Below are positions 46,459 to 52,906 of a stretch of 64,000 nt of DNA, in pieces. Source of the stretch: a virus (Duplodnaviria > Heunggongvirae > Uroviricota > Caudoviricetes). The translations under genes and the position numbers were made by a program. The stretch lies in the IMG/VR virus record IMGVR_UViG_2541047879_000001; one strand, given 5' to 3'. The number at the start of each line of letters is the position of its first letter. The first letter of the stretch is position 1. A model generated the notes under the pieces. The model was not told where the DNA came from and made no database searches. It saw only the letters and a list, made by a program, of their open reading frames with translations.

Positions 46459-46667
46459 CGAGATTAAAGACCATTAATTCATATGTGAATTGACAGTTTC
46501 ATGGCACAGGATACGGCTAGCGTGGTTGTCTGTTTTGTGCCAGGGGCGGGCCTAACTAAGTTCACACAACATTGATTATTGAAGATTAGGTCAGAAATAA
46601 ATAGGTTATTTTGATAATTTAGTTACGTTAGAATGCCGCAGTGTACAAAGTAAAAATGAGGAATAAT

Positions 46668-48029
46668 ATGACTCGGAGTGAAATAAACGTCTGGGATAAG
46701 AGACGAGGCACCAATAGTCATCGTGTGGAGGAGATTCGATCTGAAGCTCAGCACGACCTTTCTCGACTGATTCACTCGTCTGCTTTCAGACGATTGCAAT
46801 CCAAAACACAGGTTCTTGGTCTGGGTGAAAGTGATTTCTACCGCACACGACTGACTCATTCTATGGAAGTCGCACAAATCGGTTCAGGTCTTCTTGCTAA
46901 GCTGAAAATAAAATATAAAGGTAAAGAGCAAGAGCAATTTTTACCAGATAACGATCTTATGCAGGCAGTATGTCTCGCACATGATATTGGACATCCTCCA
47001 TTTGGTCACGGCGGTGAGGTAGCTCTTAACTACTGTATGCAGGATTACGGTGGTTTTGAAGGAAACGGTCAGACACTTCGCATTCTCTCGAAACTAGATA
47101 AGTATACCGTTGAACACGGACTCGATCCTACACGCAGACTTCTGCTAGGCATACTGAAATATCCGGTTAAATACTCGGATCTAGTGGTTACAAAAGACAG
47201 AATCCCGGCCACTATCGGATCGCCGAACTGGCTCTTTAAGTCATCTGATTTTAAACCTCCAAAATGCTATCTAGATTCAGAATGCGATGTTGTAGAATTT
47301 GCTCTTTCACCATTTACTGAACAGGATCGGAGGCTTTTTACTTCCGTTGAAGATGGTCAAACTAAATCCGATCATAAAAAAGCTTCTTATAAAGCTCTCG
47401 ATACAACCATCATGGATCTTGCCGATGAAATTTCGTATTCGCTGCACGATTTGGAGGATGCTATTTCTCTCGGAATGGTGACACGAGAAATGTGGATGGA
47501 GCATTTCAGTGAATATGAAACCCTATTTACTAACTGCCATGGAGAAACATTTTCCGCAACATGTGAATCTGTCGCGGATAGCCTTTTTGGTGAAAGTTAC
47601 AAGAGAAAAGAGTGCATCGGGATGCTGGTTCACCTGATGATTACAAGCGTTGAGCTTATTACAAAGAATCCAGCATTCGAATGTGGCATGCTCAAATATA
47701 ATGCGGTCCTTCCGGAAGCGGTCGAAGCACTACGGTTGAAAATTTTCAAACTGGTCAAAAATAAAGTAATTAAGCATGAAAATGTACAGCAGCTTGAATT
47801 CAAGGGACAAAAGTTGATTGTTGAGCTTTTCGGTGTGCTGGCTAACGATCCGTGTCGGTTTCTACCGGCATCAACGAGGGAAATTTACGAGCGGCAGACT
47901 AGCTTGGACGAGAAGGCTGGTATGCGAGTCATTTGCGACTATGTTTCAGGGATGACTGATGACTATGCAACAAAGCTTTATGAGAAGATCCTTATTCCAC
48001 GCAAAGGGTCTATTTTTGACCATCTCTAA
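46668..48029 (+). CDS. Dgt-family dGTPase (HD-domain dNTP triphosphohydrolase); candidate anti-phage nucleotide-depletion enzyme
   Basis: Motifs shared with E. coli Dgt: FRRLQSKTQV, RTRLTHSMEVAQIG, HDIGHPPFGHGGE, EGNGQTLRIL, DLADEISYSLHDLEDA, YVSGMTDDYA; RBS gagga before ATG 46668; AT-rich island. Confidence 0.85.
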   Translation: MTRSEINVWDKRRGTNSHRVEEIRSEAQHDLSRLIHSSAFRRLQSKTQVLGLGESDFYRTRLTHSMEVAQIGSGLLAKLKIKYKGKEQEQFLPDNDLMQAVCLAHDIGHPPFGHGGEVALNYCMQDYGGFEGNGQTLRILSKLDKYTVEHGLDPTRRLLLGILKYPVKYSDLVVTKDRIPATIGSPNWLFKSSDFKPPKCYLDSECDVVEFALSPFTEQDRRLFTSVEDGQTKSDHKKASYKALDTTIMDLADEISYSLHDLEDAISLGMVTREMWMEHFSEYETLFTNCHGETFSATCESVADSLFGESYKRKECIGMLVHLMITSVELITKNPAFECGMLKYNAVLPEAVEALRLKIFKLVKNKVIKHENVQQLEFKGQKLIVELFGVLANDPCRFLPASTREIYERQTSLDEKAGMRVICDYVSGMTDDYATKLYEKILIPRKGSIFDHL

Positions 48030-48090
48030 TGCGGCAAGAATGATGCTCTGAGTTCAATTGACCTATAAACATTAACCAAGGCATCTACCA

Positions 48091-48110
48091 GGGGGATATC
48101 AAATCCCCCC
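48091..48110 (+). terminator. Hairpin downstream of dGTPase gene
   Basis: gggggat-atcaaa-atccccc stem-loop followed by a T-containing tract. Confidence 0.4.
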
Positions 48111-48439
48111 ATTCTGAATTTGTTCGTGCAGAATCGGTGAACGTTCTCATCTGAGCGTTAAACGCCAATAATCGTTGATCTACATTGATCATTAATACAC
48201 CTTAATACCATTAGCGTCTTACTCCGTTATGAGAACAAACGCGAACTGACCTGCCCCCAGTATTAGTGACCTTCAGCTACGGTAACTTGTCCGCTTCGTG
48301 CCAGAAGCGGACATCCATAGAGAAATAAGCGATCAGTTCTTAAATTTGTTGTGATTTTTTGATTTTTTTGTATTCGCAAAGGGATTTGTGTTGGTTGTAT
48401 AATTACCTAATATTCATACAGTTGAATGGGAGATGTGGG

Positions 48440-49333
48440 ATGAAGTTCTCGTACAGACATGGTTTTGATCCTGAGTATAATAAAAAGCCGATACGGGAAG
48501 ATGCTCCAGAGTGGCTTCGCTCTTTATTTTTTGTAACTGTCCTCGATAATTTTTTGTACATTGATGGTGATAGCCGCATTACGAATGATGAGAACAAGCC
48601 GTTGGGTATTAAGGCTTTGATCGAGCGACTTTGCGCAGAGAATGGTCAAGAAACAGATCATGAGGATTTCGATTCATGGTACTGCTATGATGCTTTGAAA
48701 GCGCGTTTGCAACATATGCGTTGGTTTCAATTTTATGATGCTGTTGAGATTATCGGAGATCTATTAAGAAAAAGAGATGTAGAAAGAGGCCATACTTGGG
48801 GTAAGAAGGCATTAGAAGACATTACTTTTACATCATATCGTCAGAAATTGAACGAGTTATTCGCATCTCGAAATATTGACTGGAAAATGAATTCTGCTGG
48901 TAGGTTAGAAACACCACTACCAAATGAATTAGAACAAAAAATCGATGAAACTAACAACTTATTGCAAGACCAGTTTGAACCTGCAAGGAGGCACTATGTG
49001 AAAGCCCGGGCTTTTGCATTAGGTGCGCATAAGGATCCAGAAAATTCCATAAAAGAATCAATAAGTGCAATAGAAAGCATGTGTCGGACTTATTATCCTT
49101 CAGCCTCAACCTTGGGCGATGTATTAAAACTGATGAGAAAAGAAAACACTATCTCACCTATGCTTTTAACGGTGATAGAGAAATTTTACGCTTATACAAA
49201 TGCAGAGCCAGCAGTAAGACATGGTAGCAACAAGGTTTCTTCTGTCTTGGAATACGATGCTGAATTCGTGTTGCATATATCAGCAGCATTTATTAGAACA
49301 ATAATACAAAGAAAAGCTGTTTTGGATAACTAA
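48440..49333 (+). CDS. Uncharacterised protein (297 aa), no family recognised
   Basis: ATG with RBS gggag; -10-like tataat about 40 nt upstream; AT-rich; convergent with MBL-fold gene. Confidence 0.5.
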   Translation: MKFSYRHGFDPEYNKKPIREDAPEWLRSLFFVTVLDNFLYIDGDSRITNDENKPLGIKALIERLCAENGQETDHEDFDSWYCYDALKARLQHMRWFQFYDAVEIIGDLLRKRDVERGHTWGKKALEDITFTSYRQKLNELFASRNIDWKMNSAGRLETPLPNELEQKIDETNNLLQDQFEPARRHYVKARAFALGAHKDPENSIKESISAIESMCRTYYPSASTLGDVLKLMRKENTISPMLLTVIEKFYAYTNAEPAVRHGSNKVSSVLEYDAEFVLHISAAFIRTIIQRKAVLDN

Positions 49334-49419
49334 GTCAGACTTACAGCCAACTGACTGTCTCTTATTATTCAAAACATAATAATGTTAGGTCCGCTTATCG
49401 CACATCAGGGACAACCATA

Positions 49420-49450
49420 CTCAAATCTCCCACATTGCAGGAGATTTGAG
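49420..49450. terminator. Perfect 11-bp inverted repeat between convergent genes
   Basis: ctcaaatctcc-cacattgca-ggagatttgag between stop of 48440-49333 and stop of 49574-50800. Confidence 0.4.
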
Positions 49451-49573
49451 TGTGAACACGTCACCGTGGAACAAAGACTGTATCATCGGTCAAAAAAGAC
49501 CTGGTTATCTAGCAAAAACTTTTAACATACCAACAAACTTAATTTATTTAAATGCTATTAATACAACTAATGT

Positions 49574-50800
49574 TTAAAATATATATTTTATATCAACCCA
49601 ATTTTTAGCATTATTGTCAACTAAAGTAACGCTATGTCCATGACTTGAATTTATAGCATCGATTACTGATTGTGATGGGTGTCCATGTGAATGACCATCC
49701 GACTGAGCTATAAACAAAACATTATCAAAATCCGCAATTATTTTTTGATTGAAATTTAATTCCGAACCATGATGAGGTAATGTCATCACCCTTACCGTTT
49801 TAATCACTTTTGAATAGAATTCAGCCCATTTATTATAATACAATGATGTATTAAGCTTTGAGTCACCTGTTAATAAAACAGATCTAATTCCTTTATCTCT
49901 ATCAAAGAGAAAATGTCGCTCAACCCGACTATTTCTAAAACTAAACCACTCACGAGAAGGCTCATTAACAATTTTCATCTCAGCTTCTTGATTATTAATA
50001 ATCAAGAGATTGATTGATATTACATTATGATCGCCAGCAAGTTTTAAATAACACTCGCGTAATTTCTTTCTTTCCCCCGTGCTAGTTAATATTTTAAGCA
50101 TTTTTTTCTTACTTAACTCAGTAAAACCATTTTCTATTAACTGCTGACTGAAAATTTCAATTTTCTTACGTGAACGGGGCGGTATCCAAGAAATAAATGA
50201 CATTAGTGTATCAGTTTTGTTTTCCCCAATCCTTTTAACCAACCAACGGTTACATTCAACATCTCCTTTGGAGTCAGATATTTTCATTGGTAAGCTTACA
50301 GCGCTATCCTTAATGTTTTCACTATTAAATATAGGAGGGTCAAAATTATCATCAATATCACAGGGGTAAAGCAAAGATATATCTGCCTCAGGCAACCTTG
50401 ATTTTATCCATTTGACAGGATCAATGAGAAATTCCATAAAAAGACCTGACGTAGAATTAGAGCATAGCTCCGATGCAATTAAGTAATAGCTATCATGGAT
50501 ATCTAGGTATGGTAATACAACCTTGCGTATTTTGTTATCTACAAGCTGACATAAATGGTCAAATCCATTTATATGGTCTGAATCCAAATGAGAGATGTAT
50601 ACCACATCAATATATTTCTCATCAATATTAAAGAGAGATTTAGCCACATCCATCTCCCTACGCAACGCATTTAATTGGTCACTTCCGCAGTCATACACAT
50701 AACTGTAAAGCAAACTACCATCCCTTCCCCTCAGTCCGCCTAAACTAAATCCACCCTGGCCAACGGGAAACAATCTTTTATGAAATACTTCTCCGCTCAT
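49574..50800 (-). CDS. Metallo-beta-lactamase-fold hydrolase, ComEC-type MBL signature (putative nuclease)
   Basis: HxHxDH-like motif YISHLDSDHINGFDH, later LPHHGS and DGHSHGHPS metal-ligand motifs; RBS aaggat before ATG; AT-rich. Confidence 0.7.
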   Translation of the reverse strand: MSGEVFHKRLFPVGQGGFSLGGLRGRDGSLLYSYVYDCGSDQLNALRREMDVAKSLFNIDEKYIDVVYISHLDSDHINGFDHLCQLVDNKIRKVVLPYLDIHDSYYLIASELCSNSTSGLFMEFLIDPVKWIKSRLPEADISLLYPCDIDDNFDPPIFNSENIKDSAVSLPMKISDSKGDVECNRWLVKRIGENKTDTLMSFISWIPPRSRKKIEIFSQQLIENGFTELSKKKMLKILTSTGERKKLRECYLKLAGDHNVISINLLIINNQEAEMKIVNEPSREWFSFRNSRVERHFLFDRDKGIRSVLLTGDSKLNTSLYYNKWAEFYSKVIKTVRVMTLPHHGSELNFNQKIIADFDNVLFIAQSDGHSHGHPSQSVIDAINSSHGHSVTLVDNNAKNWVDIKYIF

Positions 50801-51514
50801 ATATCCTTCTTACACCCTAACGTGATCATAAAATTGTCTTAAAGTTAAGTTTAAAGCTAAAAAGTCACAGCTCATTCCAACTCGTGAGCAATAGGAATGT
50901 ATATTCAATCAGTTAGAGGATCAACCCGATTTTCTCTAATGAGATTTCGCAACGCAGTACGAACAGCAGCTACTTCTGCCATCTCATTAACAACCACACT
51001 GGACTACAATCCCCTAAGTTCTACAGACTGTAACCATATCCTCTTCACAGAAATAATCTGATTAATGCTGAAGGTCATCTTTCTCGACGCGAATGTATGA
51101 CATAACAACCTCAGTTAATTATCTTTCGATAGAAAAATACCTTCACAAAAGGTTTAAGCAACCCATCACAAGACAACACGCTAAGCTTGCCTTGTAAGCG
51201 TCCTGCTTAACCGAACAGTTCGCTTTCAGAGGATCTCCGGAGAACAGCTCCGATGCCTTATAAGGCCAATGCTCGCTCCTCGCTCACTGCGGACCTAAGG
51301 TTTGGTCAGCTTGTTCGCACTCTGCCAAAAGCGGGAGTTACTCCCATTCGGTGTTAATCAATGTAGAGCAGATCAATCAACGACAAAGAAAATGAGAGGC
51401 ATATCACTACTCATATGAAAATTATTGTAGTAAAGTGAGCCGTAAGTTCATCATTTATAAATCATATAGCATATATGTTATATCAATTTTAATTTAAATG
51501 GCAGAATAATTACC

Positions 51515-52219
51515 ATGGAAAAAATTAAAACTCCTTGTCCATATTGTAAAGGTGAAAAAAATTGCCACATAATAGGCCATAAAAAAAGAGAATGGAGTGA
51601 GGATGATGGGGGCAACTATTTTTGGGCTGAAAGTGAATACAAATTATTAGAGTGTATGGGGTGCGACGGAATATTTACATATATTAAATCCCGTCACAGT
51701 GAAGATTACGACATTGAAAGAGATGAGTCAGGCTATGATTGTATGGTATATAACTATCATATATCAACATATCCCACTCAAGAGCAAGAAGAGATTAGAC
51801 CAACTTGGTTTGGTGAGACATTAAACAAAGATCGTCAGCTGTATGTAATAATGAACGAAATGTACATCGCATTTCAAAATAAATCATTCATTTTAGCGGC
51901 GATTGGACTTAGAACTATTTTTGACAGAACAGTTGAGGTTCTAAATATTCATCCAGGATATACATTAGGCCAGAAGGTTGACATTCTTAAAGAGGAAGGT
52001 TTTATTGGGGAAACAGAAAGGAGCCAACTTAAAATTGTAACCGAAGCTGGCAACTCAGCTGCACACAGGACATGGGCACCGAACGAAACTGAATTTAAAT
52101 CGCTTTTGGTAATTATAGAAAATTTTGTAATGCGAACAATACTAAAAAATGAGGATATATTTAAGATTACAGAAAAATTACCTGCGAAATATCCAAGACC
52201 TCCCAAAAAGCAAGAATAA
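51515..52219 (+). CDS. Zinc-ribbon plus DUF4145-like (HEPN-like?) protein; candidate abortive-infection effector
   Basis: N-terminal CPYC...(36 aa)...CMGC four-Cys ribbon; C-terminal AAIGLRTIFDRTVEVL...AGNSAAHRTW region recalled as DUF4145-like; weak RBS. Confidence 0.5.
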   Translation: MEKIKTPCPYCKGEKNCHIIGHKKREWSEDDGGNYFWAESEYKLLECMGCDGIFTYIKSRHSEDYDIERDESGYDCMVYNYHISTYPTQEQEEIRPTWFGETLNKDRQLYVIMNEMYIAFQNKSFILAAIGLRTIFDRTVEVLNIHPGYTLGQKVDILKEEGFIGETERSQLKIVTEAGNSAAHRTWAPNETEFKSLLVIIENFVMRTILKNEDIFKITEKLPAKYPRPPKKQE

Positions 52220-52657
52220 TGTACGTAAGTGTAAATAGAGCTAAGAGATTATATATTGACTCTGGTTATCTCTATTAGCACATGCTTTTTGTAATGCCTT
52301 AACTGATTATTTAAACTCCTGTCAGCTTTTCGCTCAAAGCGGACTAAAGTGTTGGCTTGTGACTGACTTAGCGCATTTAAGGAAGTGGTGGTGGTGACGG
52401 GGTGTTGTGTCCCATTTCCACAGAATAAATCAGAGAAACTATAGCGGCTGTAATGGCAATCTATGGTCTTGCTATTGCTCTTATGGATCACCTTTCTGAT
52501 TGATTTCATATTGGCGAGGTAACGGGAGTTAAGTAGAATAGCTGCGGGTGCTTGAGGCTGTCTGCCTCGGGCATGAACACCAAAGGCAGATAGAGAAAAG
52601 CCCCAGTTAACATTACGCGTCCGGCAAGACGCTTAACATTAATCTGAGGCCACATCT

Positions 52658-52906
52658 ATGCTTTGCATACGTAGATTAGCCTCTTACCGACCAAAAGGTC
52701 AAGGAGAAGCAGGCTATGAAGCAGCAAAAGGCGATGTTAATCACCCTGATCGTCATCTGTTTAACCGTTATAGTGACGGTACTGGTAACGAGGAAAGACC
52801 TCTGCGAGGTACGAATCCGAACCGACCAGACGGAGGTCGCTGTCTTCACAGCTTACGAACTTGGGGAGTAAGAGGACCAGCGGGGAGAAATCCCCGCAAC
52901 CTCTGA
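52658..52906 (+). CDS. Possible mok-like overlapping reading frame of the hok locus
   Basis: ORF starting 58 nt upstream of hok and overlapping it in another frame, as in hok/sok/mok loci; positional inference. Confidence 0.3.
   Translation: MLCIRRLASYRPKGQGEAGYEAAKGDVNHPDRHLFNRYSDGTGNEERPLRGTNPNRPDGGRCLHSLRTWGVRGPAGRNPRNL
52716..52871 (+). CDS. hok: Hok-family membrane toxin (HokD/RelF-like), type I toxin
   Basis: 51-aa ORF MKQQKAMLITLIVICLTVIVTVLVTRKDLCEVRIRTDQTEVAVFTAYELGE found by reading (below track cutoff). Confidence 0.8.
   Translation: MKQQKAMLITLIVICLTVIVTVLVTRKDLCEVRIRTDQTEVAVFTAYELGE

What the first reader, a model, noticed from the sequence alone, without database searches (positions are those of the whole stretch)
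51515..52219. Stand-alone zinc-ribbon / DUF4145-like protein
A 234-aa protein pairs an N-terminal four-cysteine ribbon (CPYC ... CMGC) with a C-terminal region that resembles what I recall of DUF4145, a domain found in abortive-infection and restriction-associated proteins and suspected to be HEPN-like. It has its own upstream non-coding region and is divergent from the MBL gene.
Basis: partly seen in the sequence, partly recalled or inferred. Interest (0 to 1): 0.6.

Follow-up and report, generated by a model that had tools for sequence, protein, structure and literature searches.

The report
Prophage zinc-finger HEPN RNase defence gene
This is a real, self-contained prophage cargo gene whose protein joins a four-cysteine zinc-binding sensor-like domain to a HEPN (DUF4145) RNase domain, the same layout as the recently solved anti-phage protein RAZR, but it belongs to a separate, widespread and untested family with a different sensor fold and an altered catalytic motif.

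The parts
51322..52341 (+). Mobile one-gene cassette: about 192 bp of conserved upstream DNA, the ORF, and about 120 bp downstream
   Evidence: Homology with the EC11 (pin-adjacent) and O121 (P2 Z/fun locus) copies begins and ends at about these points, while the flanks are unrelated. GC is 35-38% against 50-54% in the prophage core. No flanking repeats were found. The boundaries are approximate.
51515..52219 (+). Coding sequence, 234 aa plus stop
   Evidence: dN/dS 0.12-0.19. RefSeq annotation WP_029798703.1 'DUF4145 domain-containing protein'.
51515..51769 (+). N-terminal beta-rich four-cysteine domain (aa 1-85): presumed zinc-binding sensor. Cys codons at 51536-51538, 51545-51547, 51653-51655, 51662-51664.
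51555..51561 (+). A7 homopolymer in codons 14-16: the site of the recurrent frameshift allele
   Evidence: A7 in intact alleles, A6 in ET490 and PRO_A. Four of 12 Rac-borne copies are 704 nt long. The truncated 158-aa product P0008 occurs on 122 contigs.
51770..51832 (+). Conserved linker (aa 86-106) with near-invariant P87, P96, W98 and D106
   Evidence: Column counts P118/119, P114, W113, D90.
51833..52144 (+). HEPN (DUF4145) helical domain (aa 107-210). Candidate catalytic residues R133 (51911-51913), H184 (52064-52066), R185 (52067-52069).
52145..52216 (+). Disordered proline/basic C-terminal tail (aa 211-234) with near-invariant P223
   Evidence: pLDDT below 50. P223 is conserved in at least 90% of sequences. 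Its role is unknown.

Best explanation
A single-protein anti-phage (probably abortive-infection) system carried as prophage cargo. The N-terminal four-cysteine beta-domain acts as the infection sensor. It is coupled through a conserved Pro/Trp-rich linker to a C-terminal DUF4145-type HEPN RNase that is kept inactive until a phage-derived trigger, most likely a phage protein, binds the sensor and rearranges HEPN dimers or oligomers. RNA cleavage then shuts down translation and stops the competing phage. Shown here: the domain architecture, the HEPN fold, invariance of the four Cys, R133 and H184, solitary and mobile cargo status, location in defence or cargo slots, and purifying selection. Inferred by analogy with RAZR and general HEPN biology: zinc binding, RNase activity, the sensor role of the N-terminal domain, trigger-dependent activation, oligomerisation and the abortive outcome. 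The active site is probably non-canonical: H184 with the adjacent R185 and/or helix-2 R133 takes the place of the usual motif Arg.
For: Architecture and fold.
The Pfam model's His and Asn map to H184 and N180.
The same cassette sits in three prophage backbones: Rac between the replication and nin genes, next to pinE, and at the P2 Z/fun locus. Z/fun is a recognised defence locus (PMC13586616).
In 13-16 of 84 dereplicated loci the gene lies between P2 gpR/gpS and gpV/gpW.
It occurs on 63 IMG/VR contigs and matches phrog_1305.
No partner gene is conserved, median gaps are 96 and 72 bp, and only about 14% of loci have a tightly linked same-strand neighbour.
Window neighbours are an anti-phage dGTPase and PDC-S32. 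Elsewhere neighbours include Gabija and type I R-M.
The N-terminal domain is more variable than the HEPN domain (27 vs 42%), as reported for RAZR's specificity-determining zinc-finger domain (PMC13017515).
RAZR, with the same two-domain logic, is experimentally an abortive-infection RNase.
Five of 12 Rac-borne copies in complete E. coli genomes are inactivated. This fits a costly toxin-like gene but also fits plain decay.
Against: There is no experimental data for this family.
The motif Arg that is essential in RAZR (R146) corresponds to T/V/I176 here, with no R in 119 sequences, so RNase activity is not guaranteed.
No hit in PADLOC.
No consensus promoter was detected in the conserved upstream region, so expression in lysogens is unproven.
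None of the cultured phages in INPHARED carries a close relative.
Many bacterial-genome neighbours are housekeeping genes, so defence-island association is partial.
Oligomerisation and trigger identity are entirely by analogy.
Confidence: 0.6

Rival explanations
1. It is simply an orthologue or member of the RAZR (PD-T7-4) family and works exactly like it, as a 24-mer ring assembled around phage portal or Erf-like rings.
For: Same order of domains and similar size (234 vs about 219 aa). The spacing between cysteine pairs is similar (8/11...47/50 vs a ribbon at about 12-59). Both match DUF4145. Both have a conserved linker and a variable N-terminal domain.
Confidence: 0.1
2. It is the already validated DefensePredictor system DS-38 ('HEPN plus zinc finger, zinc-finger domain distinct from PD-T7-4') or a close homolog. 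In that case anti-phage activity is already shown and only the mechanism is open.
For: The DS-38 description fits: an E. coli single protein in which only the HEPN domain superposes on PD-T7-4.
Against: No accession or sequence for DS-38 is available in the held text. The gene is rare: 14 of 5,426 complete E. coli genomes, while the screen used 69 strains. None of the listed cluster accessions looked like an ECOR or UMB record, though this was not checked systematically.
Confidence: 0.2
3. It is the toxin of a toxin-antitoxin or addiction module that stabilises the prophage, with an unannotated antitoxin (a small RNA or peptide in the conserved 192-bp leader), and is not primarily an anti-phage sensor.
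For: HEPN proteins are frequent TA toxins (PMC3710099). The cassette carries a conserved upstream region with an AT-rich palindrome at 51450-51492. A hok/sok module lies next door. Frameshift and IS-disrupted alleles are frequent.
Against: No second ORF is conserved within the cassette. No MNT-type or other partner is conserved in 84 loci. No Rfam hit. The invariant, variable-surface zinc domain is better explained as a sensor.
Confidence: 0.08
4. It is a phage regulatory or nucleic-acid-binding protein (the PHROG label is 'DNA binding protein') with a catalytically dead HEPN scaffold.
For: phrog_1305 annotation. The canonical motif Arg is missing. Zinc ribbons often bind nucleic acids.
Against: H184 and R133 are invariant, and R185, N/S180, D137 and E202 are near-invariant, across phyla, which argues for a maintained active site. 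The gene occupies dispensable cargo slots in unrelated prophages rather than a fixed regulatory position. The PHROG label is unreferenced.
Confidence: 0.05
5. It forms a two-gene system with the divergently transcribed MBL-fold gene.
For: Adjacency and divergent orientation in the window. The MBL protein shows weak similarity to defence-associated MBL proteins such as LmuA and Avs1a.
Against: The cassette occurs without the MBL gene in EC11, O121 and ET490. No MBL neighbour appears among the recurrent neighbours in 84 loci. Cassette homology starts at about 51322, some 520 bp away from the MBL gene.
Confidence: 0.02

Closest known systems
RAZR / PD-T7-4 (ring-activated zinc-finger RNase; E. 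coli UMB1727 RRL46918.1; PDB 9Y6U, 9Y9C; Zhang et al. Nature 2026; Vassallo et al. 2022)
   Same: A single protein of about 220-230 aa. N-terminal Cys4 zinc domain, then a conserved linker, then a C-terminal DUF4145-type HEPN domain. The N-terminal domain is the most variable part. Carried on mobile elements of Enterobacteria.
   Different: No sequence-profile match to the RAZR chains. The N-terminal domain here is about 30 residues longer (extra strands, aa 53-85) and has no zinc-ribbon or RAZR structural hit. RAZR's essential motif Arg (R146) corresponds to T/V/I176, and a clade-specific R185 follows the His. There is a Pro/basic disordered tail. Trigger, oligomeric state and activity are unknown.
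DS-38 (DefensePredictor preprint, 10.1101/2025.01.08.631726)
   Same: Described as an E. coli HEPN plus zinc-finger defence protein whose zinc-finger domain differs from that of PD-T7-4. This matches what is seen here.
   Different: No mechanism has been published.
Generic DUF4145 HEPN family (PF13643; Anantharaman et al. 2013)
   Same: Matches the model above threshold. Shares the helix-2 Arg (R133), the motif Asn (N180) and the His (H184). Zinc-ribbon fusions were listed in 2013.
   Different: Lacks the model's motif Arg (T176R raises the score by 4.9 bits). About 20% of DUF4145 members were already noted to have an incomplete motif.
L106:2504-3262(-) protein (IMG/VR contig IMGVR_UViG_2600254917_000001), an uncharacterised distant homolog
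   Same: Homologous over both domains (hhalign 99.2%, E 7e-20, 210 columns). Shares the CxxC...CxGC pairs and the 'SED' and 'YP' motifs.
   Different: Keeps the canonical R-x3-N-x3-H motif and lacks R185, so the window clade's active-site arrangement differs from that of at least one full-length relative.
Other DUF4145/HEPN defence proteins: PD-T7-3, BxaP, Ishtar1
   Same: A DUF4145-type HEPN effector in single-protein defence or abortive-infection systems.
   Different: Different partner domains (none, a HEAT-like domain, or a C-terminal beta/alpha domain). The HEPN domain is N-terminal in BxaP and Ishtar.

Membership tests
DUF4145 (PF13643) / HEPN superfamily | Significant match to the Pfam DUF4145 model | tested here: met
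   E 3.2e-11, 43.6 bits against a cutoff of 23.1, residues 115-201 covering model positions 2-87 of 88.
DUF4145 (PF13643) / HEPN superfamily | Four-helix HEPN fold | tested here: met
DUF4145 (PF13643) / HEPN superfamily | Conserved catalytic His at the end of helix 3 | tested here: met
   H184 in 119/119 sequences. H184A lowers the Pfam score by 9.5 bits. The position is at the helix end.
DUF4145 (PF13643) / HEPN superfamily | Motif Arg upstream of the His (R-x3-N-x3-H in DUF4145; Rx4-6H in HEPN generally) | tested here: not met
   Position 176 is T46/V35/I30/A7 of 119, never R. T176R raises the Pfam score by 4.9 bits. The distant homolog's R aligns to T176. This is not disqualifying for the family, since 20% of members lack the full motif.
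DUF4145 (PF13643) / HEPN superfamily | Metal-independent RNase activity | not testable with these tools
   Needs biochemistry.
RAZR / PD-T7-4 | Sequence homology to RAZR (RRL46918.1 / chains of 9Y6U) | tested here: not met
   Profiles A1 and A2 give no hit at E<=10 in a PDB copy shown to contain 9Y6U/9Y9C. A direct pairwise alignment was not possible because the sequence could not be retrieved.
RAZR / PD-T7-4 | N-terminal Cys4 zinc ribbon followed by a C-terminal DUF4145 HEPN domain in one protein | tested here: met
   Compare the HHpred layout of PD-T7-4.
RAZR / PD-T7-4 | Classical compact zinc-ribbon zinc-finger domain (RPB9-like) | tested here: inconclusive
RAZR / PD-T7-4 | Essential catalytic pair R146/H154 (Arg 8 residues before His) | tested here: not met
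   The His is present, but the Arg position is T/V/I.
RAZR / PD-T7-4 | Recognised by a defence-system HMM (PADLOC) | tested here: not met
   No family for the window protein at E<=1, and only three isolated weak hits to unrelated models among 119 members. Whether PADLOC v2.0.0 contains a PD-T7-4 model was not verified.
RAZR / PD-T7-4 | Activation by assembly around phage ring proteins; abortive infection | not testable with these tools
   Needs phage assays and cryo-EM.
Prophage defence cargo ('moron') | Variable, dispensable gene at recognised cargo slots of otherwise syntenic prophages, with atypical GC | tested here: met
HEPN-MNT type toxin-antitoxin | Adjacent MNT or other conserved antitoxin gene | tested here: not met
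   No conserved neighbour in 84 dereplicated loci, and there is a single ORF in the cassette.

The most novel reading that the evidence does not exclude
The window protein represents a second, independent lineage of zinc-domain/HEPN immune sensors. Its enlarged beta-sheet zinc domain has no solved structural relative and would recognise a different class of phage triggers than RAZR's ring proteins. Its RNase would use a rearranged active site, with the His followed by R185 and supported by helix-2 R133, in place of the canonical motif Arg. If so, the sensor domain would be a new pattern-recognition module spread through prophage cargo slots of several bacterial phyla.
Probability: 0.3. Interest if true: 0.6.

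Novelty: new variant of a known kind. Interest (0 to 1): 0.45.

Why it matters
RAZR showed that a tiny zinc-finger/HEPN protein can sense the geometry of phage assemblies. This family is widespread (279 representatives at 50% clustering, from Proteobacteria to Cyanobacteria and Chloroflexota, and often in P2-like and lambdoid prophages). It keeps the same two-part logic with a different sensor fold and a shifted catalytic arginine. Testing it would show whether 'zinc-domain sensor plus HEPN' is a general modular design with interchangeable sensors. It would also show which phage features the new sensor reads, and whether HEPN RNases tolerate relocation of the catalytic Arg. In practical terms, it is an unannotated defence candidate that current tools (PADLOC, NCBIfam) miss, and the PHROG label 'DNA binding protein' is probably misleading.

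Tried and rejected
- I could not obtain the RAZR or DS-38 sequences. Neither paper has supplements held as text. Vassallo Table S2 gives only the accession RRL46918.1.
- A DUF4145-like probe written from memory pulled only designed repeat proteins and a few classical HEPNs from the PDB.
- A real canonical DUF4145 protein (L106) also failed to reach RAZR. My first attempt with it used wrong minus-strand coordinates.
- Foldseek against the PDB gave only weak HEPN hits and spurious polycystin matches.
- Rfam found only sok near the gene and nothing in the upstream gap.
- The promoter and terminator scan was no better than shuffled sequence.
- No flanking repeats explain how the cassette moves.
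- tblastn against INPHARED phages found nothing, either with the window protein or with a Pseudomonas P2-lineage member.
- The N-terminal extensions of the 360-507-aa family members have no Pfam domain and may be gene-call artefacts or extra zinc ribbons.
- A literature search for the RefSeq accessions found nothing.
- The MBL-partner hypothesis was rejected on comparative grounds.
- Per-domain dN/dS showed no sign of positive selection in the N-terminal domain among the three E. coli alleles. The 'sensor' argument therefore rests only on its higher divergence.

Full report
**Observation.** Pfam confirms DUF4145 (PF13643) over residues 115-201 at E = 3.2e-11, 43.6 bits against a gathering score of 23.1. 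NCBIfam and PADLOC give nothing for it. It is a real gene. Three E. coli alleles that differ at 53-109 nucleotide positions have dN/dS of 0.12-0.19. Full-length homologs exist across phyla. AlphaFold2 gives a confident model (mean pLDDT 83).

**Genomic setting.** The window is a Rac-type lambdoid prophage of E. coli integrated next to ttcA. The gene lies between the replication module (ydaV, DUF1627, DUF977) and the hok/sok plus nin/Q-like module (DUF1367, DUF1364, DUF1133; sok confirmed by Rfam). Three other low-GC cargo genes sit in the same stretch:
- an anti-phage dGTPase at 46641-48029 (NCBIfam 3.9e-168);
- a PDC-S32 / AbiJ_NTD4 protein at 48440-49333;
- a solitary MBL-fold gene at 49574-50800 on the minus strand.

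GC is 30-40% over this block and 50-54% in the prophage core.

**The gene is autonomous.** Megablast against 5,426 complete E. coli genomes found two diverged copies (92.5% and 85.6% nucleotide identity over the ORF) in completely different prophages. One is immediately after the pinE invertase at the end of a tail module (strain EC11). The other is between the tail-fibre assembly gene and the tail sheath gene of a P2-like prophage (O121). From my knowledge of the P2 gene order, that position is the Z/fun locus. The locus is cited as a defence-cargo site in PMC13586616.

Alignments show that homology starts about 192 bp upstream of the ATG (~51322) and ends about 120 bp after the stop (~52341), with unrelated flanks. 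So a ~1-kb single-ORF cassette moves between prophage cargo slots, and it does so without the MBL gene. In strain ET490 the MBL gene is also absent. The idea of a divergent MBL/DUF4145 pair can be dismissed.

**Family.**
- The word-indexed search found only 16 close relatives in Enterobacterales.
- An exhaustive profile search of 1.84 billion representatives found 279 proteins at E <= 1e-30, nearly all matching end to end at 210-260 aa, and 2,722 at E <= 1e-3.
- Related loci come from Gamma-, Beta- and Alphaproteobacteria, Acidobacteriota, Bacteroidota, Cyanobacteria and Chloroflexota, and from 63 IMG/VR viral contigs.
- The protein matches phrog_1305 over its full length (4.9e-29; label 'DNA binding protein').
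- No cultured phage in INPHARED has a close relative.
- The exact window protein occurs on 381 contigs and is named only 'DUF4145 domain-containing protein'.

**Neighbourhoods.** I called ORFs in 146 loci, dereplicated them to 84 by family-protein identity, and clustered the four genes on each side. No partner gene is conserved. The only recurrent neighbours (13-16 loci) are P2-type structural genes. Rz-like, gpR and gpS lie upstream, and gpV, gpW, gpJ and gpI lie downstream; Pfam confirmed GpR, GpS, GpW, the V-type baseplate protein and Baseplate_J. This is a third prophage cargo slot. From memory it corresponds to the orf30 position of P2, which I did not verify. Median intergenic gaps are 96 bp upstream and 72 bp downstream. 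Only about 14% of loci have a same-strand neighbour within 30 bp. In bacterial chromosomes the other neighbours are mixed: Gabija GajA, type I R-M, integrases, IS66 and housekeeping genes.

**Anatomy.** In 119 diverse members the invariant columns are C8, C11, C47, C50, R133 and H184. Near-invariant columns are P87, P96 and W98 in the linker, T134, D137, K154, A178, G179, R185 (113/119), W187, P189, E202 and P223.

The AF2 model has four parts:
- a beta-rich N-terminal domain (strands 3-7, 14-30, 35-47, 53-61, 66-69, 75-78, 80-85), in which each cysteine pair sits in a turn between strands, as in zinc knuckles;
- a linker;
- helices 107-121, 125-142, 151-160, 166-183 and 191-210;
- a disordered Pro/basic tail.

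**The catalytic motif is non-canonical.** I scored point mutants of the protein against the Pfam DUF4145 HMM to read out what the model expects:

| Variant | Bits | Change vs WT |
|---|---|---|
| Wild type | 43.6 | - |
| H184A | 34.1 | -9.5 |
| R133A | 37.1 | -6.5 |
| N180A | 37.9 | -5.7 |
| T176R | 48.5 | +4.9 |
| R185A | 43.3 | -0.3 |

So the generic DUF4145 signature is R(helix 2) ... R-x3-N-x3-H. This family keeps the helix-2 Arg, the Asn (or Ser) and the His, but it has T/V/I in place of the motif Arg, with no R in 119 sequences. It has instead acquired a clade-specific Arg directly after the His.

A distant full-length homolog found by chance on a viral contig, L106:2504-3262(-), matches the family by hhalign at 99.2% probability, E 7e-20, over both domains. 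It retains HRFMGNEAVH, and its Arg aligns to T176. The wider superfamily therefore includes members with the canonical Arg. HEPN families that keep the His but lack the Arg, with other conserved basic residues proposed to compensate, are documented. Invariance of H184 and R133 argues that the site is functional, but activity is inferred.

**Comparison with what is known.** DUF4145 was assigned to the HEPN superfamily in 2013, and zinc-ribbon fusions were listed then. [quoted passage not shown] It has since been characterised as RAZR (Zhang et al., Nature 2026):
- it has an N-terminal Cys4 zinc-finger domain that binds phage ring proteins (the Erf-like Gp77 or the portal);
- it has a conserved linker;
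- its C-terminal DUF4145 HEPN domain needs R146 and H154 for function;
- 24 copies assemble around the phage ring and cleave RNA non-specifically, which causes abortive infection;
- the zinc-finger domain is the most variable region and sets specificity.

The window protein has the same design. Its N-terminal domain is likewise more variable than its HEPN domain: 27 vs 42% mean pairwise identity across the family, and 50 vs 66% among close relatives.

It is not a detectable RAZR family member, for five reasons:
- The 14- and 119-sequence profiles do not hit the RAZR chains at E <= 10. I verified that 9Y6U and 9Y9C are in the searched PDB copy by finding their Gp77 chain at 1.4e-142.
- No member hits any PADLOC model convincingly. 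I did not verify that PADLOC v2 contains a PD-T7-4 model.
- HHpred coordinates for PD-T7-4 (ribbon ~12-59, DUF4145 87-175), compared with ours (Cys 8-50, DUF4145 115-201), show about 30 extra residues in our N-terminal region.
- The equivalent of R146 is missing.
- The N-terminal fold has no zinc-ribbon or RAZR match.

A DefensePredictor preprint reports a validated E. coli system, DS-38, described as 'HEPN and zinc-finger domain' in which only the HEPN domain superposes on PD-T7-4. That description fits this protein, but no accession is available to me. The gene is also rare (14 of 5,426 complete genomes), while the screen used 69 strains. I put the probability of identity or close homology at about 0.2.

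Other DUF4145 defence proteins (PD-T7-3, BxaP, Ishtar1) have different architectures.

**Mechanism proposed.** The most likely reading is a single-protein, trigger-activated HEPN RNase defence expressed from a prophage to exclude competing phages. The zinc domain would be the sensor, and the conserved Pro/Trp linker would couple it to HEPN dimers or oligomers.
- Shown: architecture, fold, conservation pattern, autonomy, mobility and cargo-slot location.
- Inferred: metal binding, RNase activity, the nature of the trigger, oligomerisation and the abortive outcome.

Confidence is 0.6 for the general statement. It is considerably lower, about 0.3, for a RAZR-like ring-scaffold activation specifically.

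**Verdict.** It is best classed as a new variant of a known kind: a RAZR-like zinc-domain/HEPN defence from a distinct family, with a novel sensor fold and a shifted catalytic Arg. Interest is moderate (0.45). Nothing here would astonish a defence-systems specialist. It is nevertheless a widespread family that annotation tools miss, with clear and cheap experiments available.

Noticed in passing
window 51555-51561 (A7 tract); L148 and L149; H28-H32: Four of the 12 Rac-borne copies in complete E. coli genomes carry an A7->A6 slip in codons 14-16 that frameshifts the zinc domain. RefSeq then annotates a 158-aa remnant (WP_157924236.1 = P0008), which occurs on 122 contigs. A fifth copy (ET979) is split by IS1. 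The A7 tract is conserved in all intact alleles, and a second A7 lies at 51581-51587. This could be plain decay, relief of a costly toxin, or phase variation.
   Followed up: partly
window 46641-50800: The adjacent cargo block holds an anti-phage dGTPase (46641-48029, NCBIfam 3.9e-168), a PDC-S32 / AbiJ_NTD4-like protein (48440-49333, PADLOC 1.6e-33) and a solitary 408-aa MBL-fold protein (49574-50800, minus strand). The MBL protein has only weak, mostly C-terminal similarity to LmuA, Avs1a and RT-associated MBL proteins, and no partner gene was identified for it.
   Followed up: partly
window 50801-51321: About 520 bp of non-coding DNA lies between the MBL gene and the left end of the cassette, with a GC-richer block at ~51160-51340. 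There is no Rfam hit at E<=1 and no convincing ORF. It is not shared with the EC11 or O121 copies, so it belongs to the Rac/MBL side. Its function is unknown.
   Followed up: partly
window 52546-52871: A hok/sok type I toxin-antitoxin module (Rfam sok, 105 bits; Hok/Gef ORF 52716-52871) lies immediately downstream. This segment, not the DUF4145 gene, accounts for the ~2,600 partial E. coli matches.
   Followed up: yes
L106:2504-3262 (-), IMGVR_UViG_2600254917_000001: A 253-aa distant homolog with the same zinc-domain/HEPN layout retains the canonical DUF4145 R-x3-N-x3-H motif (HRFMGNEAVH). This marks a sister clade with the usual active site. It is also missed by PADLOC.
   Followed up: partly
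L010, L012, L014, L102, L103, L105, L110 and others: In Pseudomonas/Burkholderia-type P2-like prophages the family gene sits in a fixed slot between the tail-completion genes gpR/gpS and the baseplate genes gpV/gpW. This is a cargo site inside the late structural operon and is distinct from both the cos-proximal and the Z/fun hotspots.
   Followed up: partly
L031 and 13 near-identical Sphingomonadales loci (L020-L029 etc.): One family variant is spread almost unchanged through many Sphingomonadales genera. It lies about 1 kb downstream of a Gabija GajA gene (PADLOC 1.9e-274) and a second large gene, which suggests a shared mobile defence island.
   Followed up: no
window 52145-52216; family alignment A2: The disordered C-terminal tail is proline/basic (LPAKYPRPPKKQE) and has a near-invariant proline (P223) across phyla. 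A short linear motif of unknown role is conserved in a region that AF2 predicts to be unstructured.
   Followed up: no
P0081, P0082, P0113, P0123, P0145: Some family representatives are 360-507 aa long, with 130-290 extra N-terminal residues that carry additional CxxC pairs but no Pfam domain. These are either tandem zinc modules or gene-call artefacts.
   Followed up: partly
phrog_1305: PHROGs labels this family 'DNA binding protein' in the category DNA, RNA and nucleotide metabolism. Given the HEPN fold and the cargo location, that label is probably misleading for annotation pipelines.
   Followed up: no
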